64,000 bases of DNA, taken from positions 248,001 through 312,000 of the forward strand of contig NMRA01000349.1 of the NCBI GenBank assembly GCA_002633005.1. Reading direction: 5' to 3'. Position 1 is the stretch's first letter. Every line of letters starts with the position of its first letter. Below are positions 32,101 through 64,000 of the stretch, piece after piece. Both the position numbers and the translations under genes were made by a program. This DNA is from Phoronis australis. Lineage: Eukaryota; Animalia; Phoronida. The notes below the pieces were generated by a model, which was not told the origin of the DNA, ran no database searches, and saw nothing but the letters and a program-made list of their open reading frames with translations.

Positions 32101-35100
32101 ACCTTGAGAAGGCACAAACAGCTAGCTTTAGTTTACTGTTTGATGAGTTCCAAGGTAACGTTTGTTCATGGAGGGTTTATAGACACCTTGAGGAGGCACA
32201 AAACTGCTAGCTTTAGTTTACTGTTTGAGGAGTTCCAAGGTAAGGTTTGTTCGTGGAGTGTTTGTAGTGCATCTTGAGAACGTGAAAACAGCTAGCTTCA
32301 GTTTACTGTTTGATGAGATCCAATGTGAGGCTTGCTCATGGACAGTTTGTAGAGCACGCAGGGATATACCTGGACGTCAAGTTTTTATGTGCCCACATAT
32401 TTGTATCTGGGTGCATATTGCCGTCATCTCTGTTTGGGCGTCCGTGTGTCTGGCATCCGCGGCTGTATCTCCTAAACCTCTAGAGGATCTTAATAAATTT
32501 GGCAGGTGTGTTCCTATGGGGTTGTCGACTGAGGGTGAAGAGTTTGGGACCGACCCGAGTACCGCTGTGCCCCCTAGTGGCAATTTTAATTTTGTGCATT
32601 TGCCTCTGTATCTGCAAAGGTCTTCAACCGATTTTCATGAAATTTCATTGGTACTTAGGCATCTATTAATGAGGTGAAGCTATCATCCGGTTTTCGGATG
32701 GATTCGAGGCATTTTCCGCCATCTAGTGGCCATTTTTATGCGCCCACATATTTATATGTGGACGCATTATGCCGTCATCTCTGTCCGTCCGTCCGTCCGT
32801 CCGTCCATCCGTCCGGGCGGCGTCCGTCCGGCGTCCGCTGCTCTATCTCCAAAACCCTTTGACATACGTTCATGAAATTTGGCACATATGTTCCATTCAT
32901 AAATGGGACGGCATGTGCGAACTTTCGGACGGATCCGACTACCGGTGTGCCCCCTAGTGGCAATTTTAGTTTTTTACGCTTACCTTTGTATCTTCAAAAG
33001 TCCTGAANNNNNNNNNNNNNNNNNNNNNNNNNNNNNNNNNNNNNNNNNNNNNNNNNNNNNNNNNNNNNNNNNNNNNNNNNNNNNNNNNNNNNNNNNNNNN
33101 NNNNNNNNNNNNNNNNNNNNNNNNNNNNNNNNNNNNNNNNNNNNNNNNNNNNNNNNNNNNNNNNNNNNNNNNNNNNNNNNNNNNNNNNNNNNNNNNNNNN
33201 NNNNNNNNNNNNNNNNNNNNNNNNNNNNNNNNNNNNNNNNNNNNNNNNNNNNNNNNNNNNNNNNNNNNNNNNNNNNNNNNNNNNNNNNNNNNNNNNNNNN
33301 NNNNNNNNNNNNNNNNNNNNNNNNNNNNNNNNNNNNNNNNNNNNNNNNNNNNNNNNNNNNNNNNNNNNNNNNNNNNNNNNNNNNNNNNNNNNNNNNNNNN
33401 NNNNNNNNNNNNNNNNNNNNNNNNNNNNNNNNNNNNNNNNNNNNNNNNNNNNNNNNNNNNNNNNNNNNNNNNNNNNNNNNNNNNNNNNNNNNNNNNNNNN
33501 NNNNNNNNNNNNNNNNNNNNNNNNNNNNNNNNNNNNNNNNNNNNNNNNNNNNNNNNNNNNNNNNNNNNNNNNNNNNNNNNNNNNNNNNNNNNNNNNNNNN
33601 NNNNNNNNNNNNNNNNNNNNNNNNNNNNNNNNNNNNNNNNNNNNNNNNNNNNNNNNNNNNNNNNNNNNNNNNNNNNNNNNNNNNNNNNNNNNNNNNNNNN
33701 NNNNNNNNNNNNNNNNNNNNNNNNNNNNNNNNNNNNNNNNNNNNNNNNNNNNNNNNNNNNNNNNNNNNNNNNNNNNNNNNNNNNNNNNNNNNNNNNNNNN
33801 NNNNNNNNNNNNNNNNNNNNNNNNNNNNNNNNNNNNNNNNNNNNNNNNNNNNNNNNNNNNNNNNNNNNNNNNNNNNNNNNNNNNNNNNNNNNNNNNNNNN
33901 NNNNNNNNNNNNNNNNNNNNNNNNNNNNNNNNNNNNNNNNTATGTTTCTGTGGTGCTTTAAGCAACTGGTGTATAGGATGTGCTTGTATTATGAAGATTA
34001 CTCACATTTTGCCCCTAGCCTATTGAGGAGACAATGACCATGCCTTTCCATTTTGCAAAGTATGCCCTCTACTGGCCACTTTATGGTACCAATAAACAAC
34101 CCTAGAAGGATACCGTATGCGGTGCAATTGTGTGCGCATTTCAACGCTCCGCGTTGCTCTTGTTACTATTTTCAAGTCCTTTTGTTGGCCCCCTGTCAAC
34201 CAAACCACTCAAAGGATGATTGCGAAAATTGGCGTGCGTGTTCTTACTCTGAGGAGGACGGTTGACGATGATTTTCCGATGACTTTGACTACTGTGGCAC
34301 CTCCTAGTGTAAGTTTTGTTTGGTTTTGCGCCCATGGCTGTATCTCCTAAACGCTCTACAGGATCTTTATTAAATGTAACAGATGTGTTTATATGACGTT
34401 GACAACAAACGACGACGACTTTCGGACAGATCGGACTACAGGTGTGCCCCCTAGTGGCAATTTTATGTTTTTTACGTTTACCTCTTTATCTTCAAAGGTC
34501 CTCAATGGATTTCTATAAAATTTGGCACAAGCACGCTTCACGGAACACGGCCTGAAGTGCACCAATTTCCGTGAAAAAAAACTTTCCATCTGCACGCTAC
34601 ATTAGAAAAGAACAAAAATATCGGATAGCAGAGACACTGAAAGTTTTCCTGTTGCAGTCTGTATAATGGTGATCTTTAAGTGCCTTCAAAAAATCTTTTC
34701 CGTGAAATTGCTATTTCATGATTTCATAATTATGCAGTCAGCACTTGAATCTGATTAACGTACATACACCGATGGTTCCCTGCATGTCGCTAGATGGCAC
34801 CAGCGAGAGTACGTCCATAGACCGATGGTCGTACCCAAAATAAAGTTTATCAATATACTTCAACCTAGGTACGGTGTCCAAAAAGAGAGGCCTCGACAAA
34901 AAAGTTTTGGGTAGTCCTGGAAACCTGAAACTTATTGGTGTATATATTAAGATGTTTCCCAGCCTAAACATCAGGTTGAGTTGTCAATGAGTTCACAGTG
35001 AAGTTATGTTAATCCCATTTGACGTTTTCTGAGTAATATTTTTAGATTCAGTGTAACTAAAAGTATGCAGGTGATGAATTTGGTATCGGAAAGAGCAGAC

Positions 35101-49484: not shown

Positions 49485-50390
49485 TTACCATGTGTGGCCA
49501 AAGCGACTCTCTGCATTCACGCCCACATTCGGTGCAAGCTTAACCATCATTCCATAACTCTGCATCTTCATCATCATTGTCATTGCCACAATTAAGTTGA
49601 TATGTTTGCTTGCCATATGTGCGCATATGGCGGGTTAGTGCAGTTCTATTACTACACACACGCCCACACAGGTGACACACTGTGTCATTATTATTCTTAT
49701 CGGACATGTGGTCGTCATATTCATGTGTACGGTATGTGCGCAGCTGTACACAATCGGAAACCGCCTTGTGCATCATTGCAAAAGTTTGTGTCTTACCGCC
49801 ATTGCTCCCACCATCATTGGTTTGGTACAGATGGTGAGGCCAAGCCAGCTTCACTACTGTACATACCCCCATACCTGGCACTTTCTGCATCATCCCAGGA
49901 CTGTTCACCACTGAGCTTCTTATAGTCATCACTATATTGGTGCAAACGGTAGCTATGTGTAATGGTATGTGAGGTTAAACTATCTCCGCTGCTATACACA
50001 GATTCATACCTGGCGCTTTTTGCGTCATACGAGGACTGTTCTCCATTGAGTTTCTTATAATCATTACAAATGGTAGTCCTGTTGGCGTGCATGTGAGGTT
50101 AAACTTTCTCCGCTGCTGTACACAAGCTCATACATGGCACTTTCTGCATCATCCCAGAACTCTTTTTCATGGAGTTCTTTATAACCCCACTGAATTGGTA
50201 CAAATTATAGTAGTCCTGTTGGCGTGCATGTGAGGTTAAACTATCTCCGCTGCTGTACACAGGCTAAAACCAGGCACTTTCTGCGTCATCCAAGACTGTT
50301 CTCCATTGAGTTTCTTATAATCATCATTGGATTAATACACAAGTGGTAGTCGTGTGTGCGTGCATGTGTCATTAAACCTTATTCACTGCT
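49485..50390 (-). pseudogene. Degenerate ~120-bp-period C2H2 zinc-finger-derived repeat array, cassette 1
   Basis: One intact finger (CHLCGRVCSNRTALTRHMRTY, last His replaced) plus Cys-less units (SWDDAESARYxxxYSSxxxLxSH). Contains frameshifts and stops. Confidence 0.6.
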
Positions 50391-50391
50391 C

Positions 50392-51357
50392 TTATTCAAT
50401 GGCTGCTTGATTGTTGACCCCTCGTGGTTCACCTTCTTCTGGAAATTGGGTGTCGTCCTGTGATCCATGCTTGTCAAGGAGAGGCATTAATTTGCCTATT
50501 TGTGTCGTCAATTGGTCTATTTGACTGCACAGTTTGTCTGTTTTTGTGCCCAGTGGGTCTTTACTTGTTTGTGTGCTCAGCTTGTCTATTTGTGTGCTCA
50601 CTTGGTTTACAAGACTGCTCAGCTGGTCTATTGGTCTGCTCGAAATATCGAGGACAGCTAATAGTGGTTTGTGGTCCAAAATGTTCTCATCTCCTTCCCC
50701 AAATTGGATGTTGCAGATGTGATATTGTGGCCCATTATATAATAAATAATCGATCTTCTTTTCTCCGGCTTCATACAAATGGAATTGTGGGTATTTTGCT
50801 AGGACACTTTGTGCTTTGTCGCTTTCATAGTTGAAGTCGCCTCCAACAAGTACTTTAAATCCATTCTGTTTGCTCATATAGTCCAGCAGGAACAGAAGCT
50901 CATTTAATATGGATTCCTTGACATCTTTTGCTTTGTAACGGCCATGGTAAGTGGCCACAAGAATATAGGTATCCGACATGCCCTTTATCCAAAACTTTCT
51001 GATGAATAGCCTTGTTGCAAATTCACTGTCCTCTGATATATGTTTAAGTATGCAAAGCCTCTCATGCATGTTAATGAAGTCGTGTTCTTCAATCAGCACA
51101 TTATTTAAGTTGTACACAAAACTTGTGTATCCTCCAGCACGGTCTTTTCTCCCCTCCCATACTTCGTAACAAGCAGGTTTTAGGGAATCTGCATGTGTGT
51201 TAAGGTAGCTTAGTAACATTTTTGCACTGCTTAACTCTTGCAGAAACACCAGGTCTGGCTGTTTGTCCTTCAGCAACCCGTGTATGTATTCATATACTTT
51301 GTCTGTGGTTACACCTTTTTTACGGCCTGCATTCAAGCTTATGAAATCAATTGCCAT
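50392..51357 (-). CDS. Stand-alone EEP (DNase I/APE-like) nuclease/phosphatase with C-terminal heptad repeat, 321 aa, intact
   Basis: Motifs in the expected order: ISLNA, PDLVFLQE, ATYHG, VLVGGDFN, KIDYLL, LDHKPL. Tail IDQLSSL/VNQVSTQ/IDKLSTQ. No reverse transcriptase follows. Confidence 0.85.
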   Translation of the reverse strand: MAIDFISLNAGRKKGVTTDKVYEYIHGLLKDKQPDLVFLQELSSAKMLLSYLNTHADSLKPACYEVWEGRKDRAGGYTSFVYNLNNVLIEEHDFINMHERLCILKHISEDSEFATRLFIRKFWIKGMSDTYILVATYHGRYKAKDVKESILNELLFLLDYMSKQNGFKVLVGGDFNYESDKAQSVLAKYPQFHLYEAGEKKIDYLLYNGPQYHICNIQFGEGDENILDHKPLLAVLDISSRPIDQLSSLVNQVSTQIDKLSTQTSKDPLGTKTDKLCSQIDQLTTQIGKLMPLLDKHGSQDDTQFPEEGEPRGVNNQAAIE

Positions 51358-53463
51358 GATTGTTTGATGTCTGCTTTTACGTCAGATAGGGTGGTTGATG
51401 GATAGTTTTTTTACTGTTTGCTGTCTGAAATGTGTCACGAAAGAATATGTTATGCAAGAGTATAGAAGAAAATTTGAAAGCTAGAAAATGGATGTGGTTT
51501 GAATCATTTGTATTTTTTGGAGTTCTGTAGTTTTTTCTTGTTACAGCATAACAGTGTTTAAAACTACAGGACGACAAAAACGTATTAAACAGTCTTTAAC
51601 TTAACTGTAAAACGCCTTTCATTTTTGGCTTTTCATACTGAACGTAAACTACTCAAAAAAGTAAATGGATGTTGTTGTTCACTACTAATTACCTGGAAAT
51701 TGAGAAGTTCAACATGGATGTAGTCCATACAATATAGGTGTTTGCCAGGAAATTTTCCAGACATTTTGAAATGTGTCTGAGGAATTTTTGTCTGATGTTG
51801 AAAGAACAAGTTTTTATGAAAATTCACTAGTCAGAAAACGAAAGTCACAAAATTTAAGAGATTTAACCAGTGCAGGTTCCTGGTTTCTTGGAACTATTGG
51901 TGGTCTATTAGTTGCTTGTGCCTAAACTATACTCACTTGTTGTTTCCTAAGGTTCACACAATGCCAGTCACCCTCACATATGCAGTTCTAGTCACGATTC
52001 TAAACTTTGTCAGCTGAAAATGTAAGGTAGTGTTAACACAGTTGTGCCCTTCCTCAGCACTAGGAACCAATTTAACACGTCACAGATAGTTCATGTGCCA
52101 GAAAAAAGGAAAAAATAAATTAATTTATCATCAAAACTTTAGAAACATTTAGAAAATATATTTCGTGGAACATAAAAAAGTTTCAAGCCAGCAATTTCTG
52201 ATGTTAAAAATGGAAGTATTTCCATATAGCCGAGCCTTTTGTCTTGCTCCGCCATTTTGGATTCAAGGAAGAGCAACTACAAGATTTCTTGTCCTAATTT
52301 CATCAGCATGAACACAATACCAAACAAACAGTGATAATATCTAATTAAAATGTGTTTTCAACAACATGGCATGCACGAACGCTTAAAATTTAATCTTGTA
52401 CACCAAAGCTACTTGTTTTCTCTCACCTCGTCTCTCACCTTTCGTCTCAAAACACCAAGCGTACAAGTCCCGGATGTAACGCTAAGACGTGTGGGATTGC
52501 TCACCAGCCAAATGGCAGCAATGACCGAAACCAATTATGGGATTAGTGAATAGAACAAGTGTTTGAAAATTGCAGGTTTCTATATTCCTTCTCGTATTGG
52601 TTCCTAGCTCAGCATTACATTTCCTGGACTGTTAAAACCAAGAAATTTCCAATATGTCATATGATCTGATCTAAAATAACATTCCATAAACTTGACAAAC
52701 AAGCCTATTGTGTTGGTGCACAATGCTCTGTTAGTATTGAAGTATGTCAGACTTTATGTATCTAGTCTCCTGGAGCTCCAATAAACTTTATTGTCAAGCA
52801 AGCTTTTTGTGTTGGTACACAATACTGTGGTTAAGCATGCTATGCTAGTCAAAAGAGCTTACAGTCACACAAAGGAATTAGTAGATGAAAGTTAAGTCTA
52901 ATTTCTCTGAAAATCAACTGTTTTTCTCCAGTCCACATTTTTTGGTGACAGTATTTTATACAAAGCACATCTGCTTCATGGCATTTGTTGAAAGCCGTTT
53001 ACAGATGGTATTTTTAAATATGGGTTAGCATCAGGTCACTGTTTAAAACATCCTTGCTGGATTACATGAGCATCAGATGAAAGCAGACAATAAGAAAGCT
53101 GGACTTTGTAAACATTGGTTTGCCACTGTCAAACTGATAACAACAGGGCTGTATCCTGACTGACCAAGCAGTCAATCAGGAATCAGCAGTTTAAAGTTAA
53201 GTCTAATTTCTCCCAAAGTCAACAACTTTTTTAGTAATAGCATTTCATAAAGAACGTGGTTGTTTGCATTTCTCATAGTGCTAACAGATGAGGGAAATCT
53301 GACCTAGGGTAAACATGCCCTAAAAGCCAGAAAGTTGAGCATCTTTTATCCATCTTTGCCTAAGGGCTGGTACTCCATTTGTGAATCAGCCACCTTGAAA
53401 TTCACCCCATGGCTGATGTGGGGCTATTTCCATTGGGGTGTCAGGTGACTATAGTCAGGATCC

Positions 53464-53670: not shown

Positions 53671-54854
53671 TTCCAGTCAGCAATTCGTACCCTGAACTGT
53701 AATTTCTAGAACGGCGGACCTTTGATATTTTGCAAATATCGACACTATAGTTTTTGTTAAGGCCCTTGATGCAGCTTAAATAGGGGAGAGGTAAAGCTAT
53801 ATACACGATGACACTCAGCTCTATGTTCCTGAAATGAGACGGAATTCATAATACCAGAAATGTGGTTACTCACAAAGAACAGCACTTAAATTCGGATGTT
53901 ACGTGGTCCAGAAAGAGTACATTCTCGCATTACCCCAGCCAATGAACTTTCAAATCGGTCGCACTTAAATGAGTGATAACACCTCATTTCATATTCGGAC
54001 GAAACTATGTGGTCGGAGAATGACTCGAAATTTTTATCTGGTTATATTTTGCATGTTACTTAAGTTGCTTAATGGCTGAAAACGGCAACAGCCCAGTATT
54101 CCAATGGTTCACTACTCTGAAGGTTCACTACTCCAATCAAAGGTTCATTGCACGAAAAATATCTATAATTTCGGATTCAGCTGTAGTTTTTTAACATTTA
54201 CGGTATTAGATGTACTGAGTGGTGTACCAGCATAACCGAAACAAATTTCGTATTTCATGTGCATGAGAAATTGCCTACATCTGTGTCTTACGAATTTGGA
54301 AAATGAGTACAGTGTACTTGCATTTTTAAAGGAATATGAAGTAGGAATATTGAATTATCAACCATGGCATTCATCAAATTCATATCAAGATTGCATCATT
54401 TCACAGCGCAACTGAAAAGTTAATTAGGGCCGCTGCACCTCAATCTCACCCGAGCCCGCCGGAATCACGCTCGTGGCCGAGCTGTAGGGTGCCCTGTCCT
54501 GGTCAGTTTTCATGAAGTCAAACAGTTCCATTCAGTATTCTCGAATTTAAAATAAAACGGAAGAATGGAAACGCACACACATGTACAAGTATGGATGTCA
54601 ATACACCAATCCACTATTAAAGTCGACACTGGATGAACAACTTATTTGACAATCACTAATTTGATGAAGCGCTTGAAAATTATTACTAACTTGGTTATAA
54701 TTATAGTTTGTACCAGTATCAGCAACAATTTTTTGTTGTTGCCCACTTATGTCCTATCATTAACGGATAGGCTGAGGCTGGACCTTTTCTGCAGGGGGGG
54801 TTTTCGAACCGCTGAACCCCCTGGCTACAGGCCAGTGTCCCAAATGCAGAATTT

Positions 54855-55980
54855 TTACCGGTTACCATGTGTGCCCATGTGCCGAGTCAGAGCACCTCTG
54901 TTACTGCACACATGCCCACACTGGGTACAAGTTGTGTCATTCCATAAGTCTGCATCTTCATCATCATTGTCATCACCACCATTAGGGCAATATATTTGCT
55001 TGTCATGTGTGCGCATGTGCCAGGCTAGTGCAGCTCTGTTGCTGCAAACACGTCCACACTGAGTGCACACTGTGTCATTCCACGAGTCTGCATCTGTGGT
55101 ATCTCCATTGATAGGTTAGTGTGTTTGATTACCATGTGAGCGCAGGTGTGAAATGAGACCTGCTCGGTTGCTACAAACACACCCACAAATTGTGCATGCT
55201 GTGTCATCCCAGGAGTGTTCTTCATCAGACATGGGGTCGTCATATTCAATCCACGATTCTGCTTTATTTACCAACTCGTTACCATGGTCACTGTGTTGGC
55301 GTATTTGATTGACGTGTGTAGGCATGTCTAGAGCACCTCTGTTGGTGCACACGTGACTATAAGAGGTGCGAAATGGGACTTCCCAAGATAGTATTTCATT
55401 GGGTACATGCTTATTTTCTTCAGTCGTTTGGTCGCCATATTCATGTGTATGTGTGCCGCTGTACACACCCAGAAATGTTATGCGTTCTGCATCAGTCCAA
55501 GAGTTTGTTTCATGAAGTGTCTTACCGCCATTGCTCCCACCATCATTGGATTGGTACATATGGTAATTATGTGCATGCCTATGTGAGGCCACGCCAGCGT
55601 CACTGCTGTACATAGTCCCACATCTGGCACTTTCTGTATCATCCCAGGACTGTTTTCCATTGATTGTCTTATAATCATCACTGGGTTGGAACAAACGGTA
55701 GTCGCGTGTGCGTTTATGTGAGGCCAAGCCATCACCTCTGCTTTACATAGGCTTATACCTGGCACTTTCTGCATTATCCTAAGGATTGTTCTCTACTGAG
55801 CTTCTTATAGTCGTCACTAGATTGGTACAAATGGTAGTTACGTGTGAATGTATGTGAGGTTAAACTATCTCAGCTGCTGTACACAGGCTCATACCTGGCA
55901 CTTTCTACATCATACCAAGACTGTTCACCATTGAGTTACTTTTAATCATTTAACTGGATTGGTACAAATGGTAGTATGTC
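54855..55980 (-). pseudogene. C2H2 zinc-finger repeat array, cassette 2, frameshifted
   Basis: Three intact fingers (CTICGCVCSNRAGLISHLRSH, CTQCGRVCSNRAALAWHMRTH, CTQCGHVCSNRGALTRHMGTH), each preceded by W-x-D, plus degenerate units upstream. Confidence 0.7.
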
Positions 55981-56108
55981 GTCTGTGCGGGTGTAATTCA
56001 ATGACTGCTTGATTTTTGTCCCAGCATGTATGGTTCACCATTTTCTGAAAATTGGGTTTGCTTGTGTGATCCAGGCTTGGATTAATGTTAGGAAATGTTA
56101 AAAATCAT

Positions 56109-57448
56109 TTATTGCAAATGGAGAGCCATTGGTGTGTCTGTTATTCTTTTGCCTATTTGTAGGTCTGTTAGTCTAGTTTTCAGGTCTATTCGATTGGTAT
56201 TCAGGTCTATTAGTCTGGTTTTCAGGTTTTTTTGTCTGGTTTCCAGCTCTATTAGTCTGGTTTCCAGGTCTATTAGTCTGGTTTCCAGGTATTTTAGTCT
56301 GGTTTCCAAGTCTATTGGTCTGGGCATATTCAGGACAGCAAATAGCGGTTGGTGGCCCAAACATTCAGGTTGTGGTTTTAATTTGACCTTGGGAATGTCA
56401 GTTATTAATCCATTATATAAAAAATAGTCGATCTTTTTTTCTTCATTGTCTGGGTACAAATGGAATTGGGTGTGTTCTTCTAAGACTTTCTTTGCGTTGG
56501 AGATCTTAAAGTTGAAGTCGCCTCCAACAAGTATTTTCAATCCCTCCTGTTTGCTTAACTCATCCAGCAAAAGCAGAAGCTCTTTGAATATGGTTTCCTT
56601 TTCTTCCTTCTTTACTTTTAAATGACGGCCGTGGTAAGTGGCCACAAGAAGTTTTAGATTCGGCTCGGGCTTTGATTGTAACTTTGTGATGAACAGCCTG
56701 TTTAAAAATTCACTGTTATTAGATACCAGGGACGTCTCGAGAAGTTCCTCATGTTTGGGCGTTAAGTCATATTCTTCAGTCTGCAGTTCATTTACATCGT
56801 ACACGAAACATGTTGATGAGTAAGGTCTGTCTTCTTTTCCCTCCAATACCTCGTAACACCTGGGTTTAAAGGAGTCTGCATTTTTGTTCAGGTGTTTTTT
56901 TTTAAATCTATCTGCATTGCTTAACTCTTGCAGAAACATCAGGGCCCGGTCTCCAATCTTTTTACTCGAAATGGAACTCGAAATTAGGTTTGGCATTTTC
57001 TACTCTACTTTTGGGCGAACTCAAGATAAGTGTCTATTATTCTATGCTCGAGTATACAATAACTTACGTAGATAATTTATTGCCCTTAGTTCACAGTTTG
57101 TAAACCCAATATTAAAGCAATAAGTTCGAGTTTGAACTCGAAATTTCGAGTTTTTACTCGAGATTGTAGCACGAATATAAGGGTCTTCAAGGGCAAACTT
57201 GAACTAGAAACTCCTATGCATTAACTATAATGTATTCGAGCACAGTCTGATAACCAATTATCTTAAGTTCGCACAAAAGGAGCAGAGAAATTGCCAAAAA
57301 TAGTTTCGAGTTCGTTTCGAGTACAAAGATTAGAGACCGGGCCCAGATGTGGCTTTTTTGCCTCCAGCAAGTCGCGTATGTATGTATATGCTTCCGTGGT
57401 GTTCCCTGATTTAGGGCCTGCATTCAAGTTTATTAATTTAATCTTCAT
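56109..57448 (-). pseudogene. Second EEP-heptad paralog (~311 aa restored), interrupted by a MITE
   Basis: MKIKLINLNAG...KKPHL (57448-57344) joins in frame to MFLQEL (from 56939) once the insertion and one TSD are removed. Retains ATYHG, GGDFN and KIDY, but DH is changed to GH. 21-nt repeats encode (IDLETRL)-like heptads. Confidence 0.8.
56943..57343. mobile_element. 401-bp PIF/Harbinger-like MITE
   Basis: ~40-bp TIRs GGCCCGGTCTC.AATCTTT.TACTCGAAA..., internal ACTCGAAA repeats, 3-bp TSD CAG at 56940-56942 and 57344-57346. Confidence 0.85.
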
Positions 57449-58943
57449 GATTGTGTGATGTATGTTTGTCTGCTTTTATATCAGATGGGTGGTTGATGCA
57501 TATTGTCTTTGCTGTATGCTATCTGAAATGTGTCAAAAAGGAATAATTAGTTATAGAAGAGAACAATACATGGAAATATGAAAAATGAATGTAGTTTGAA
57601 ATCATTTTTTATGTAGTGATATTTCCTTGTTACAGTGTAACAGTGTTTAAAACTACAAGACGCGATTATCATATTTAACAGAGTGTCTTTACTGTAAAAC
57701 AAAATTTATAGGTGTTCGTACTGAAGTAAACTAACCAAAAAATTAAATGTACACCATGTTGTTGTTGTTCACTACTAATTACCAGGAAATAGAGAACATG
57801 GATGTAGTCCATGTAGGTGTTTGCCAGGAAATTCCCGACATTTTGAAATGTCTCGGGAATTTTTGTCTGATGTTGGGAGAACAAGTTTTTATGAGTATTT
57901 GCGAGTCAGAAACCAAAAGTCACAAATTGGCAGATTTCACCAGTGTGGGTTCCTGGTTTCTTGGAATTATTGATGTACCATAATTTGGTTGTGCCTAAGC
58001 TATACTTACTTGTTGTTTTCTGAGCTTCACACAATGCCAGTCACCCTGGTATCTGCTGTTCTTTTTAAGATTCTAAACTGTGTCAACTTAAAGGTAGTGT
58101 TATCACAGTTGAGTCCTTTCTCAGCATTAAATTCCCCTGGACTGTTAAAACCAATACCAGGATCCAATATAGATTCATGTTCCATTATACTTGACAAATA
58201 AACCTATTGTGTTGGTATACAATGCTGTGGTAGTATTTGTACATTGTGTACCACTATCCTAGAGTGTAAAAATCAATTTCCACTATCACGATCTAGTCTA
58301 GAATCATTCTCCCATAGTCAACCACTTTTCTCCATTTGAAGTTTTTTTAGTAATAGCATTTCATGAAGAACACGTCTTCTTCACATTTGTGGAATGATGT
58401 TTAGAAATAGTGTTTTTACTTGGCGGAATTTTAATTCCGCCAAGTATGTTGGTCTGACAGCAAGTTTTTCTTTTTTTGTTTGTTCGCTCTCTACAGGTCG
58501 TCGTGTAGATCGGGAAGTACTGGAACGCTATTGTTTTTGGTCATGATCGGATTCAAAATGGCAGACGTGGCAGCCATTTTGTTTCCAATTTCACAGTCAA
58601 ATGCTCGTAGAGGCCGCATTTTTCGACGTACAGGGCTGAAACGTGGTACAATTATTATAGAACACGTGCTACAACTGTGCCGAAAATCGTTGACTTCCAG
58701 TCAAAGATGGCAGAAATATTGACGATGGCGCATGTGCACCTTGATATCTGGCCAAAAACGTTTTCCCCTGTAGAGGGCGCATTAGCGAACCAATCACTTT
58801 CAAACTGGTCACGTGTTTCTTGGAATTGATCAGCTTTTACAAAATATTGTTTAACCGGAAGTCACTTTCAAGATGGCGGCTCTGGCGCATTTTCACCCAT
58901 TTTCAATCGTTCTGCTGTCGCCTTTTTAACGGGAAGAGCAAAT

Positions 58944-59206
58944 TGTTGTGTACTTAGTCACAATAACAGGATGTTTGTAGGTTGTTATTGTTATGAGTTT
59001 AGTAGGTTAATTGGTATTATGTCATGCGATTCCTAGTATAGGAAGTGTGTCATAGGTAACGCATCATATGTTGTTATGTAGTTGTGTGTATATATATTGT
59101 TGTGATATGTAGAATAAATTAGTTCAGTTTTTCAGTTCAATTCTGTTCGTTTCACTGCGTAGTTCATGGAGTGTCTACTTTATTTGACAAAGTAAGATAC
59201 ACAACA
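58944..59206 (+). mobile_element. Solo LTR, copy 2
   Basis: Nearly identical to 44104-44368, with a different 5-bp TSD (CAAAT). Confidence 0.85.
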
Positions 59207-59929
59207 CAAATGACGTGAATTTTTGCATGTAGATTCCTTGAAGTATGCTCTTTCAAAATTTCTGGGATAACGGTTTCCTCAGACTTACCGTTTTCGAGTT
59301 ATTTGACTTTGAATTTCAAAAAAATACAAAATTTCAATTTTTTCGATAAATTTATGGAATGTTAAAACTATCAATTTAGATAGAATTTCGAACGGGCTTA
59401 CAGAAGATATTGTCCATTTTTCGCTAGATAATACAACACAAGAGAGCAAAGCAGTCATGGTACCTGAACATGGCCAAATTTCTTTTAATGATAGTGTTCA
59501 AGATGAAATATCAAAAATGTTGCCACAGTTTTGTATGTTTTTTCATGAAAATCTTTATAGTTCTATTTTGTTGTGACCCTGCATTGTAAAAATGGAAAGT
59601 TTAAAAAAAACAAGTCCTAACTGTACTGTGGTTTGGATCATAAACCATCACATGTGAAAGCTTATATGAATTTAAATAGCCATTTCTGAGATGTGATGTT
59701 CTGAAGTTGGCCAAATTTGGACATTTATCTACAGGTCCCTCTCAACCTCAGTATCATGTGATTCACAGAACTATTTGCTATCAGTGCCATTTTGAGAAAA
59801 CTTAGCCAAAATAAATCACTCTAGTTCATGTCTTGGTGATCTTAAGATCAAACACAAATTCAAGCATGGTATAAATTACCATGTAGATGTCTGAGGAACT
59901 ATTGATGCACTATAACCGGCTTGTGTCTA

Positions 59930-60252
59930 AATTGTACTTACTTATTGCTTCCTGGCCTTCATTGCCAGTCACCCTGACAGTCCTATTTAAGATTCTAAAC
60001 TGAGCCAGCTGATTAATAAGGTAGTGTTACATAATTGTGTACTTCCTGGTTGTTTGCATTTCTCAGTACTAACAGGTTGTGAGGCAAATCTTACCTCAGG
60101 TAAACATACCCTAAAGGCCAGGAAACTAACCTGTTTGGCAACTTTTATTCACCCTTACAGGAGTGCTGATACTCCATTTCTGAATCAGCCAAATTGAAAT
60201 TCACCCCATGGCTGATGTGGGGCTATTTCCATAGGGGTGTCAGATGACTAGT
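59930..60252 (-). repeat. Third partial copy of the EEP cassette upstream region
   Basis: TGCCAGTCACCCT..GATTCTAAACT..AAGGTAGTGTTA matches 51960 and 58035. TTGAAATTCACCCCATGGCTGATGTGGGGCTATTTCCAT matches 53395. Confidence 0.7.
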
Positions 60253-62416
60253 CTGAGGCTGATATAATGAGAGTGCTTGATAGATTTCAAAACATACCAA
60301 CTTCAACCTCTGCATGAGTTCAGTTTGTTAAAACTGCAAAAAATTTAAGTAAAAGCAATTAATGTATTAGTTATTAGAACCAACAACTGATATTCATGTT
60401 CGTTTGAACATCTCAGTTACTGTAAACTGCAAACATTAAATGATTTGATGAAAAAAACTTTAATTTTCATCTAAGCATCATTACAACAGAAGTTAGGTCT
60501 AGTGGACTTTAGTATTGACTTAGTCAGAATAATTAAATAAATATCCATGCTGAGCAATTTGGCAACAAAGTTGTAACTTTTGTCGAAGCTGAAAACTTTC
60601 ACAGTGACATTAACACATAAGTAATTGCCCAGTTGTATACCTTTCAGATGAAACTGAACACGACTTTGTCAAGTTGGTGACGAATCATTTAACTGAAGTT
60701 CACCTTGGGACTGCTCCTGACAAACTGAACCAGGTAGGATTGGCTGGCACAAGTTCGTCTAAAAGTTAAAGTCTCCAGGTGGCTCTACTTTGGTCGTGTT
60801 CTCATAGTGCAGCAAATCAAGTTCTAGGCGCAAAATCTGTCGTTAGTTGGGTTACGTAATCATGTTTTTTGTTGTACGTTTGTTAGAAAAATGAGAAGGT
60901 ACATTCATTTGATACAACACTGGGTATCAATTACTGTAACAGTTCTTTGATCAAATCATACAAAGCAGTAACAGTATGTTATGCCTAAAGTTTGTTTTTG
61001 ACCTGTGTACCAGCTTTTCAGCCTCAGAAAACCTAAACGTACTGTGTAAATGCTAAGGCTCGTCTCCTTTCGCGTGAACTTTAAACCTGTACTTACATCA
61101 CTTATTTCAGAGGTTACACAAACACTTAGACATCCTCAGACTAATGTCACGTGACTGCAAGATTAATTTGTTAATTAACTGTATGCTGAACAAAGTTAAG
61201 ATCACTGCGCTCCGCCCAGATTTCGTTAACAAGCTGCTTCACGTGATTTCTGTTTCTCTGTTATTTTAAATGAGGATAATCTTACTGTAATATGCCGTTT
61301 TTTGTCACTAATATAAACATGATTATAGATAATGAATGAAGGTTCACTGTATTGTGAATTGAGTATGAACTGTAAGTACAGCTGCAGTTAAGTTCTTCTG
61401 GACAACACCCTGGGTATTGAGGCTGACATTAAACTCCACTCATTTCTGGTGAAAATCAGAATAACGAGTGTCCCTTGCGACTCCTGGGTACTAACGTACG
61501 CATGGGCGTATGTTTTGCGTACTGCTCAAAAAGCTGAGATAGATGAAATATCGAAGACATCACATCAAGGGACCATTACAGAAATCTCCGTCTTAAACCC
61601 AGCCACTGGTTCATCTTTCAGGCTCACCTGCAAACACGAGAATGGTTGTCCAAGTGTTTCCTAGAGCAAGCAGCGGGGGACAGTGTAGACCCTCAGGTCA
61701 GTGTAGTAATCTGCTGTTGTATTAATTGTCTGGTCACAATGAGGAAATATGTCGCCAATTGTGCTTGAGTCGAAATTCACTAACAGTCCTAAAAAGCAAT
61801 ATCGATGACTTGTCGTTAAAAGTGATTTTATGCTCTTTAAAATTCTGATGGTTTACGAAAATGTTTAACTGAGGTCTTGATCATCATTTATTTTAAGCTT
61901 TGGTTTGAGTTAAAGTCTCCTCAGGATCTATAAGCAATGCGGACACAAACCAGTGGCCAGAGTCACAAATACATCAATGAGATGTAGGTGATTACCAATC
62001 ACAACATTCACTATGTTCATAGATTATAGACAACAGATTTGCAACTCCGGCATATTCTTACGAGCCGAGTTGACCTCTCCTAACCTATCTGCTGCAGTTT
62101 CCGGTCAGTTTTAATTTGACGAGAAATACCTGCATCTACTTTACTGTCCAAAACAGCGAAAAAAACATTACTTTATATTAATTTCGGTATTGAAACGCTC
62201 TTCAAAATCTTTCAATAGTAGAAGTGTTGGTATTGTGAGTACTTTTGGCAATGCTACTGGTAATTAATTTCAAAATTCAAACTTCGGTTCCGACCTTTTA
62301 TGTCGTCTGCTTGCCCAATAGCAGCATAGTTATCGGACAGTTTTTGATTTACGGTTCACATAGGCCTACTGAGAAAACTACGAAAGCGTGTTTATAAATC
62401 AACATTCTCAAGTGAG

Positions 62417-62497
62417 CAGTTCTTCTGGGCAGTGTTGAGTGGCCCTTAAAAGGGCCGTTGGTTGTAGGTATAGCGTGAAATGGTTCTTAAAAGAACC
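62417..62497 (-). terminator. Two histone-type 3' stem-loops (62482-62497, 62441-62456) and an HDE-like element (62417-62427)
   Basis: On the - strand: CAAC-GGTTCT-TTTA-AGAACC-ATTTC, then CCAAC-GGCCCT-TTTA-AGGGCC-ACTCA, then CAGAAGAACTG 13 nt after the second stem. Confidence 0.8.
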
Positions 62498-62507
62498 GTT
62501 GAATAAT

Positions 62508-62825
62508 TCAACATAAATCACACAGTATGCCATGCTCACTCAAGTACTGAAGGTCCTCTTCATTAAAGTTTTCATCTGGAAAGGTTGGATGAAAACAGAG
62601 GAGATGACAATATCGATGACAGTTGTAACACCTTAGATAGATATCACCGTTCACCAACGTTGTCACGAACCCTGCATCGTTCAGTTCTTGTTCCTGTATC
62701 CACAAATAATCCTGAACTGTAGGAAAAAAATGACAAACAACACAACGAATCAAATTTCGAAAATCATCGCCTTCGTACGATTCCGTGTTGCTGTCACCAG
62801 ACTGATGTTCTTCCCCAACGTCCAT
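62508..62825 (-). CDS. Small acidic PHD-type (C4HC3) zinc-finger protein, 105 aa
   Basis: MDVGEE... CVVC-x34-CYNC-x4-H-x2-C-x24-CDLC*. The ORF ends exactly at the last zinc ligand. Confidence 0.65.
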   Translation of the reverse strand: MDVGEEHQSGDSNTESYEGDDFRNLIRCVVCHFFPTVQDYLWIQEQELNDAGFVTTLVNGDIYLRCYNCHRYCHLLCFHPTFPDENFNEEDLQYLSEHGILCDLC

Positions 62826-63089
62826 CGTAAAAAATCGACGTTGCAAGTGATGGAAACTTGTCTACGCTCTCGTCCTTTGTTTCTAACCTTTAACCCATTT
62901 TTTAATAAAGGGGTGTACTGTTTTTGGCTCATGTTGATAGTGCATAATCTATGATTTTACAATGTATTAATAGTGTTAAATGCATATATATGAACTGGTC
63001 TCATTGAGGTGCACAGCAAATAAATTAACTATAACAAATTAAAGTTTTGAAAATATAAAGAGCAGTAACAGACTCCCTAAAAATTAGGC

Positions 63090-63152
63090 TTGTTTTCGAA
63101 AGGTTTGCGCCATTGGTGATCCGATTGGTTCAATCGCTTGCGGCGGGAAAAT
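63090..63152 (-). promoter_or_regulatory. Cell-cycle-type motif cluster upstream of the PHD ORF
   Basis: On the - strand: E2F-like TTTTCCCGCC (63142-63151), CCAAT at 63124-63128 and 63112-63116, CHR-like TTCGAA (~63095-63100). Confidence 0.45.
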
Positions 63153-63319
63153 TGATAGACCCAGTTATTGTGCGCGTGTACACTGTATCAATGCTTTGTA
63201 TCTTATTCTTATTTGTCTAATCTGTTGATACAGTAAATTTCCTTATTTATGCCCATCCTGATTTAACCCCGACTTGAGCTCCTTGGGTTTTACCATATTG
63301 GGGCTGTCCAGGGACTCAC

Positions 63320-63905
63320 GTGCATGCGCGCACCCAGTCTTCAAAATGGGGGGCTCGAATTCCTGACGTTATGGAACTGTTGTTAACAAGAGAGCGGGCA
63401 GACCTTTTTGCCCACTTCGCCAAATGGGGGGGGCTCGAACCCCCCCCCCTCTGAGTGGCGCACATGACGTGGTGCTTACTCGAATGAGTTTCATTTTAGC
63501 GGCTATTTCCAATTGTGTAGGTGAAGTAAATTAACAAAGTGGATGATTATCATCACCGGTATTTCATCATTAGTATTTTTGTCGGCCTCTCAAGTTTTCC
63601 GTGGCTAGGGATTGTCACATCTGTAAGGTAGACGTGTTTCAGTGAACCTCCATGTTTGTGGCGTTATTTATACCTGACCAAACTTTGAAAAAGAAGCCCG
63701 CGTTTAAACCAGGAGCTGCATTGGGTGCAATTTGTGTAGACGTTTCATGCGCGCACCCAGCCTCTAATACGGGGGCTCGAATCTCTGGCAAAGTGGACCT
63801 TTTGCTAACAAAAAGCGTGAGAACTAAAATAAAAAACGGGGTGCTGCCGTATTGTGGACTTTCGTCTCTTTCTCTTGGACTTTTCCCCTGGGTGCGCGCA
63901 TGCGT
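63320..63905. repeat. Cluster of GC-rich direct and inverted repeats
   Basis: CATGCGCGCACCCAG...GGGGGCTCGAA at ~63323 and ~63746, partial copy at ~63421, inverted CTGGGTGCGCGCATG at ~63888. Confidence 0.6.
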
Positions 63906-64000
63906 TTGTCTACGTTGCTAGTTTTTATAAAGGTGGGCCTGTCTGTAGCCAACTACGGTAAATTCATAAAAGGTCACGTGCAGTGCAACTCAAGTTCATT

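What the first reader, a model, noticed from the sequence alone, without database searches (positions are those of the whole stretch)
62441..62497. The two stem-loops differ by compensatory base changes
Seen: the stems are GGTTCT/AGAACC and GGCCCT/AGGGCC. Two pairs switch from T-A to C-G, while the loop (TTTA), the 5' CAAC and the 3' A are unchanged. Only the distal hairpin has an HDE-like sequence at the right distance. Inference: four substitutions that all preserve pairing suggest selection on RNA structure rather than a chance palindrome. A mature RNA could carry two SLBP sites, unlike typical histone mRNAs.
Basis: partly seen in the sequence, partly recalled or inferred. Interest (0 to 1): 0.7.

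Follow-up and report, generated by a model that had tools for sequence, protein, structure and literature searches.

The report
PHD gene with double histone hairpin
A small gene for a stand-alone zinc-finger (PHD-type) protein ends in two copies of the RNA hairpin that animals are thought to reserve for histone messages, and the same double layout sits behind many jumping-gene remnants, so such elements likely borrow the histone message pathway, although no RNA ending at the hairpin was seen.

Summary
Two histone-type stem-loops lie on the minus strand (62497-62482, 62456-62441). They differ at two whole base pairs, and only the distal one has a purine-rich element behind it.

The 'compensation' is modest evidence. 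Both forms are fully paired variants of the published degenerate histone consensus, so two ordinary variants or palindrome repair would look the same. Copies of this family could not be collected to test covariation.

The context matters more. The hairpins begin 10 nt after the stop of a 105-aa non-histone ORF with all eight PHD zinc ligands. It belongs to a family of about 30 stand-alone relatives, including mussel proteins. The same layout (stop, two hairpins, purine element after the second) occurs in 118 metagenome loci. In 93 of them it follows a Tc1/mariner-like transposase tail; none follows a histone motif.

RNA reads cover both strands, look hyper-edited and run through both hairpins with no pile-up of ends. 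Best reading: a probably mobile PHD mini-gene that borrows histone 3' processing, cut after the distal hairpin. Use of that pathway is unshown.

The parts
62482..62497 (-). Proximal histone-type stem-loop GGTTCT-TTTA-AGAACC, 10 nt after the stop codon; -5.5 kcal/mol
   Evidence: (22.8 bits, below gathering)
62441..62456 (-). Distal histone-type stem-loop GGCCCT-TTTA-AGGGCC, 51 nt after the stop codon; -10.0 kcal/mol
   Evidence: (34.8 bits, above gathering)
62436..62440 (-). ACTCA tail; predicted cleavage just behind it (about five bases after the stem is recalled knowledge, not shown here)
   Evidence: sequence; inference
62420..62427 (-). Purine-rich HDE-like element CAGAAGAA, +14 to +21 from the distal stem
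   Evidence: pairing with this species' U7 RNA not tested
62508..62825 (-). Uninterrupted ORF, 105 aa plus stop: acidic N-terminal tail, then a C4HC3 PHD-type finger (C28 C31 C66 C69 H74 C77 C102 C105)
   Evidence: model and fold comparison
63112..63150 (-). Possible promoter: E2F-like TTTCCCGC (63150-63143) and two CCAAT boxes (63128, 63116); motif meanings recalled, and the E2F motif is not enriched in the window
   Evidence: (5 matches, 3.74 expected)
62060..63321 (.). Approximate extent of the block covered by RNA reads between two high-copy repeats; true ends not defined
   Evidence: depth and loose-end tables; (15 reads and one contig leave the window's sequence at 62389)

Best explanation
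The two hairpins are histone-type stem-loops at the 3' end of a small non-histone gene for a stand-alone PHD-type zinc finger, which likely sits on a multicopy mobile element and is predicted to borrow the histone 3'-end pathway. Shown: the ORF, both hairpins, their spacing, the purine element behind the distal hairpin only, and transcription of the region. Inferred: SLBP binds the hairpins; U7 snRNP pairs with CAGAAGAA and the RNA is cut near 62436; the mature message has no poly(A) tail and keeps the weaker proximal hairpin as a second SLBP site; the protein is therefore made on the histone schedule, in S phase and in oocytes or early embryos, and may read or mask histone tails. The paired differences between the stems are two standard variants of the histone consensus, kept paired because SLBP needs a closed stem.
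For: Both hairpins match the published consensus and pair fully. Rfam hit above gathering for the distal one. Stop codon 10 nt upstream. All eight ligand positions are kept in 28 or 29 of 29 aligned proteins; P0003 passes the Pfam PHD_NSD cut-off; the top structural matches are PHD fingers. The same layout occurs in 118 metagenome loci: 93 of 118 have a transposase-like tail upstream on the same strand, 87 of those within 60 nt; 42 of 56 tested lie between inverted repeats; the purine motif follows the distal hairpin in 56 and the proximal in 2 of 118. Controls: 0 in viral contigs, 5 stretches in prokaryote genomes, which are tandem palindrome repeats. Signs of several copies: a second flank at 62389 in 15 reads and one contig, three-allele sites, and editing on both strands. 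The three stem variants in the shown rows that are not antisense editing give G-U pairs.
Against: No place where many molecules end, in 4 runs over 61800-63400 or in the one RNA run relaid at 62385-62560; sense-strand depth stays 17-29 across both hairpins and the purine element. Library selection is not recorded, so tail-less RNA may be missing. No DNA was obtained for any PHD relative: none of the 118 double-hairpin loci encodes one, so the hairpins are not shown to be a family trait. No terminal inverted repeat around this copy and no second copy in the window; pooled animals or alleles could mimic multicopy. In the 118 loci the proximal stem is fully paired in only 63, and pair 3-14 of the distal stem shows no covariation (8 mismatches, 8.8 expected). 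The window protein itself scores only 10.1 bits for Pfam PHD, and its best structural Z is 4.6.
Confidence: 0.5

Rival explanations
1. Only the distal hairpin works. The proximal one is a leftover of a 41-nt tandem duplication, or of a second capture, and has no role of its own; the message is processed like a single-hairpin histone message.
For: 41-nt period with 73% identity over 30 nt. The proximal hairpin is weaker (-5.5 versus -10.0 kcal/mol) and below the Rfam cut-off. In other loci the proximal stem is often broken (63 of 118 fully paired), though only its 5' arm was free in the search pattern.
Against: Here the proximal stem is perfect and keeps its CAAC flank while the spacer has diverged. 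Doubling recurs in front of the purine element after unrelated ORFs: transposase tails, a P2RX7_C protein, zinc-finger proteins.
Confidence: 0.2
2. The hairpins are inherited relics of a histone 3' end that this copy no longer uses. Transcripts are read-through of a repeat from both strands. The paired differences come from two different donor genes or from template-switch repair of the palindrome, not from selection on RNA.
For: Reads on both strands run through the hairpins with no end pile-up, and many are hyper-edited as repeat-derived double-stranded RNA would be. Both stems are standard consensus variants. The transposon loci with double hairpins are mostly decayed fragments.
Against: The ORF is intact with all ligands, and the hairpins, flanks and purine element are all in register. 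No pairing-breaking genomic-looking variant is among the 40 rows shown; 30 rows were not shown.
Confidence: 0.2
3. An ordinary, non-mobile host gene family of small PHD proteins that adopted the histone 3' end long ago and is co-regulated with histones as a chromatin factor.
For: Relatives at about 36-42% identity in other animals keep length and ligands. Possible E2F and CCAAT promoter. No terminal repeats found.
Against: Several paralogues in one mussel species and many near-identical members on different long contigs. A second flank among reads. The double hairpin elsewhere is mostly on transposons.
Confidence: 0.1

Closest known systems
Metazoan replication-dependent histone mRNA 3' end (stem-loop Rfam RF00032, SLBP, histone downstream element, U7 snRNP)
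   Same: 16-nt stem-loop matching the consensus, A/C-rich flanks, a purine-rich element about 14 nt downstream, a short distance from the stop codon, and an uninterrupted ORF.
   Different: Two hairpins in tandem, and the ORF is not a histone. PMC4604434 (abstract start and passages seen) calls histone mRNAs the only known non-polyadenylated cellular mRNAs and found no other SLBP targets in HeLa cells. Processing here is unshown.
PHD fingers (Pfam PF00628, PF22908 PHD_NSD; MLL1 PHD3, MLL3/4 PHD6, Pygo)
   Same: C4HC3 ligand order; all listed structural matches are PHD-containing chains.
   Different: Stand-alone 105-aa protein with an acidic tail, a long helical insert between the first and second ligand pairs, and the chain ending at the last cysteine; below the Pfam cut-off.
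Short Tc1/mariner-like elements with a double histone hairpin
   Same: Stop codon, two hairpins, then a purine element after the second only; the weaker hairpin is first in 7 of 14 clusters and second in 5.
   Different: They carry transposase tails between inverted repeats; the window's element has a PHD ORF and no inverted ends.

Membership tests
Histone mRNA 3'-end signal (RF00032 + HDE) | 16-nt consensus stem-loop with a paired stem | tested here: met
   Both match the expression of PMC4604434 and pair; Rfam 34.8 and 22.8 bits
Histone mRNA 3'-end signal (RF00032 + HDE) | Purine-rich downstream element at a fixed distance | tested here: met
   CAGAAGAA at +14 after the distal stem only
Histone mRNA 3'-end signal (RF00032 + HDE) | Downstream element pairs with the species' U7 snRNA | not testable with these tools
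   No genome is held for this window
Histone mRNA 3'-end signal (RF00032 + HDE) | Mature RNA ends just after the hairpin, without poly(A) | tested here: inconclusive
   No end pile-up and read-through on both strands; library selection unknown
Histone mRNA 3'-end signal (RF00032 + HDE) | SLBP binding | not testable with these tools
   Needs a binding assay
Replication-dependent histone gene | Encodes a histone | tested here: not met
   No histone family in Pfam for the ORF; PHD ligands and fold; five short histone motifs absent from the window
Replication-dependent histone gene | No intron in the coding region | tested here: met
   Continuous ORF aligning without large gaps to relatives; no joints in reads
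PHD finger | Cys4-His-Cys3 zinc ligands | tested here: met
   All eight present and conserved in 28-29 of 29 rows
PHD finger | Reaches the Pfam cut-off | tested here: inconclusive
   Window protein 10.1 bits against 24; relative P0003 27.7 against 23.9 for PHD_NSD
PHD finger | PHD fold | tested here: inconclusive
   Model pLDDT 79; no Foldseek match under E 0.001, best are PHD6 of MLL3/4; Z 4.6, rmsd 2.6, 59 aligned to MLL1 PHD3
PHD finger | Binds a histone tail | not tested
   No complex prediction was run
Non-autonomous Tc1/mariner element | Terminal inverted repeats | tested here: not met
   None around the hairpins in 60000-64000 at E<0.001; one search lists only short arms
Non-autonomous Tc1/mariner element | Transposase remnant before the hairpins | tested here: not met
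   The ORF is PHD-type; DNA similarity to the transposon loci lies only at the hairpins
Mobile element of any class | Dispersed copies with defined ends | tested here: inconclusive
   Second flank and multi-allele sites in reads; no genome to count copies

The most novel reading that the evidence does not exclude
Unrelated mobile elements of invertebrate animals (Tc1/mariner transposons, P2RX7_C-domain elements and a PHD-only mini-element) have repeatedly adopted a doubled histone 3' end. A second hairpin upstream of the cut site gives the tail-less message two SLBP sites and ties it to S phase and oocyte storage. Here the cargo is a lone histone-tail reader that could shield the element from silencing while chromatin is rebuilt.
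Probability: 0.3. Interest if true: 0.82.

Novelty: new variant of a known kind. Interest (0 to 1): 0.6.

Why it matters
SLBP and U7 are described as serving histone messages only (PMC4604434, passages seen). A non-histone, probably mobile, chromatin-reader gene with a complete and doubled signal would be a second client of that pathway. The same layout behind transposase genes would give transposons a way to time expression to DNA replication and to be stored in eggs without a poly(A) tail. The natural pair of a weak and a strong hairpin makes a simple reporter test of what a second SLBP site does. The compensatory changes alone are ordinary consensus variation and would not merit attention.

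Tried and rejected
No whole genome is held, so copy number, element ends, this species' histone hairpins and U7 could not be examined.

Early protein queries began four residues after the true ATG at 62825; later ones used the full ORF.

Viral contigs: three protein scans gave no real relative. The 2 loci are 10-residue matches; the one inspected (L124) lies in a phage tape-measure-like region.

Runs X6 and X8 laid nothing at the hairpins. No RNA holder was listed.

Pfam named no DDE family for 7 of 7 transposase-tail fragments, nor for 2 of 3. Only L104 gave DDE_3 (E 5.4e-5, below cut-off) and Sleeping Beauty transposase (E 9.1e-5), so the Tc1/mariner label rests on that fragment, similarity to it and its neighbours, and inverted repeats.

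P0008 was dropped as a repeat-rich false hit. The continuation of the truncated repeat at 62059 was not found in the window. No tandem repeats in 58000-64000. The E2F-like motif is not enriched. The wide structure search could not be run.

Ten literature searches listed no paper on tandem histone hairpins, or on histone hairpins in transposons or PHD genes. Only listings and abstract starts were seen, apart from passages of four papers. Two searches used a half-remembered element name and found nothing relevant. The lancelet words used in searches were my guess at the host and are untested. Subscription journals and Repbase reports are not in the library.

Full report
Observation. The minus strand reads TGA (62510-62508), 10 nt, GGTTCT TTTA AGAACC (62497-62482), 25 nt, GGCCCT TTTA AGGGCC (62456-62441), then ACTCA and CAGAAGAA at +14. 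Both hairpins follow CAAC and precede A. These are the only 2 matches in 64 kb to a degenerate pattern with up to one mismatch; 0 of 100 shuffles reach 2. Rfam Histone3 gives 34.8 bits to the distal copy, the only hit at gathering level in the window, and 22.8 bits to the proximal. Both fold in the MFE and centroid structures, z -3.6. The description is accurate and far beyond chance.

How much the compensation shows. If one hairpin was duplicated (41-nt period, 73% identity over 30 nt), four random stem changes would fall as two restored pairs with probability 0.001-0.009. But the published search expression for the histone stem-loop is GG[C/T][C/T][C/T]TT[C/T]T[A/G/C/T]A[A/G][A/G][A/G]CC plus a pairing filter (PMC4604434, passage seen), and both hairpins satisfy it. 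The changes sit on the positions the consensus leaves free. Capture of two standard variants, or template-switch repair of a palindrome (recalled, no call), needs no selection in this element. Within-family data are thin. In 118 RNA reads of run X9, 40 variant rows were shown and 30 were not. Three stem variants outside antisense hyper-editing (62441, 62454, 62484; 5 reads each) all turn a pair into G-U, and 62484 may itself be editing. One contig of run X7, under a different organism label, spans both hairpins with no change listed in them. Runs X6 and X8 laid nothing.

What the hairpins terminate. The ORF 62825-62508 encodes 105 aa with an acidic tail and C-x2-C, C-x2-C-x4-H-x2-C, C-x2-C. 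It is not a histone. Pfam PHD scores only 10.1 bits. The representative search returned 8 proteins (one dropped as a false hit) and a profile search 31. Most are 84-119 aa, although that search only admitted 42-200 aa. Apart from P0001 (96%) and P0002 (68%) they are 32-42% identical. In an alignment of 29, the eight ligands are kept in 28 or 29 rows. P0003 passes PHD_NSD. Named members are two Dreissena polymorpha proteins, and P0003's cluster has 5 members on separate long contigs. The model (pLDDT 79) matches PHD fingers best, but weakly: no Foldseek hit under E 0.001 and Z 4.6 to MLL1 PHD3. Upstream lie an E2F-like site and two CCAAT boxes; the E2F motif is no more common than chance in the window.

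The double layout elsewhere. A tandem-hairpin pattern found 118 loci in 6 of 64 parts of the metagenome collection (about 1300 estimated), 0 in viral contigs and 5 stretches in prokaryote genomes, which are tandem palindrome repeats. Using four fragments from these loci as seeds, 93 of 118 have a similar protein tail upstream on the same strand, 87 of them within 60 nt of the first hairpin. One has it only on the other strand and 24 have none (seeds match themselves). Seed L104 resembles DDE_3 (E 5.4e-5, below cut-off) and Sleeping Beauty transposase (E 9.1e-5); 9 other fragments got no DDE name. Of 57 stretches with enough flank, 42 of 56 metagenome loci lie between inverted repeats and the window's own does not. 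Other loci end different ORFs, among them a P2RX7_C-domain protein (L080). No histone motif occurs in any of the 118 (five short motifs), and none encodes the PHD family. A GARGR motif lies 9-26 nt after the distal hairpin in 56 of 118 and after the proximal in 2. Distal pair 4-13 has 0 mismatches against 6.5 expected, pair 3-14 has 8 against 8.8. These are related copies in about 29 clusters, not independent events. The proximal stem is fully paired in 63 of 118 and the distal in 110, but the pattern constrained the distal more.

Transcription. Three raw RNA runs and one contig run cover roughly 62060-63320, between two high-copy repeats, with no splice joints and no place where many molecules end. 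At 62385-62560 run X9 has depth 17-29 for first mates on + and 13-49 on -, with no drop at the predicted cut. Of 18 A>G rows, 15 occur only in first-mate-minus reads, mostly in reads with 9 or more other changes; two of four T>C rows occur only in first-mate-plus reads. This looks like A-to-I editing of double-stranded RNA from both strands (inference; no matched DNA). Fifteen reads and the X7 contig leave the window's sequence at 62389 with a shared other flank, which suggests more than one copy or haplotype. So the region is transcribed, but the reads seen are read-through; whether the libraries keep tail-less RNA is not recorded.

Mechanism. From known histone processing (PMC1635294, abstract and passages seen: cleavage between hairpin and purine-rich element, with distance critical), the distal hairpin and CAGAAGAA would direct a cut near 62436. 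That would leave both hairpins on a tail-less message. The proximal hairpin lacks a downstream element and would act only as an extra SLBP site. The protein would then follow the histone schedule. All of this is inferred: confidence 0.5 for the whole, 0.2 that only the distal hairpin matters, 0.2 that both are unused relics, and 0.1 for a fixed host gene family.

Novelty. PMC4604434 (passages) reports no non-histone SLBP targets in human cells. Ten searches listed nothing on tandem hairpins or on hairpins in transposons or PHD genes. A 2026 preprint on the evolution of this pathway (10.64898/2026.10.14.759114; abstract start and term look-up only) has no occurrence of 'non-histone', 'transpos' or 'tandem'; its supplements were not seen. 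PMC10954484 (passages) was not relevant. Earlier AI notes of this scan report single and double histone hairpins on other non-histone genes and repeats; they are unchecked leads, and they make this a recurring pattern and not a lone oddity. Verdict: a real feature and a new variant of a known signal, interesting for its non-histone, probably mobile host more than for the compensatory pairs. Interest 0.6.

Noticed in passing
L002:965-1322, L003, L004, L038 and most of L001-L118: Short Tc1/mariner-like elements with long inverted repeats (many with CACTGTG-like ends) keep only the transposase tail followed by a double histone hairpin and a purine element. No paper on this was found.
   Followed up: partly
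L080:233-933: A 213-aa ORF with a P2RX7_C domain (E 1.8e-6) ends 12 nt before two GGCCCT-type histone hairpins.
   Followed up: partly
L009:493-1556, L047, L113, L018, L054: Other non-histone ORFs, some with zinc-finger-like cysteines and no Pfam family, followed by double hairpins; L054 has a weak-then-strong pair much like the window's.
   Followed up: partly
window 62385-62560: Strand-specific A>G and T>C clusters in RNA reads suggest A-to-I hyper-editing of both strands, including the hairpin loops of antisense RNA.
   Followed up: partly
window 62018-62059 and 63322-63903: A 42-nt piece of a high-copy repeat that breaks off at 62059, and a high-copy repeat starting at 63322 with 16-nt perfect inverted arms (63322-63337, 63888-63903).
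   Followed up: partly
window 49540-51381 and 54646-56996: Two similar blocks on the minus strand, each an endonuclease/phosphatase-like ORF with a coiled-coil tail beside C2H2 zinc-finger ORFs; possibly a local duplication.
   Followed up: no
L119, L121, L122: An archaeal (Methanosarcinales) assembly carries tandem repeats of about 49 nt that contain a palindrome matching the histone stem-loop consensus; probably a coincidental intergenic repeat.
   Followed up: no
P0004, P0013, P0018: N-terminal extensions rich in F, L, I and S just before the common start could be read-through of a T-rich leader or an intron acceptor; DNA not seen.
   Followed up: no
window about 33010-33940: Assembly gap of Ns.
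   Followed up: no
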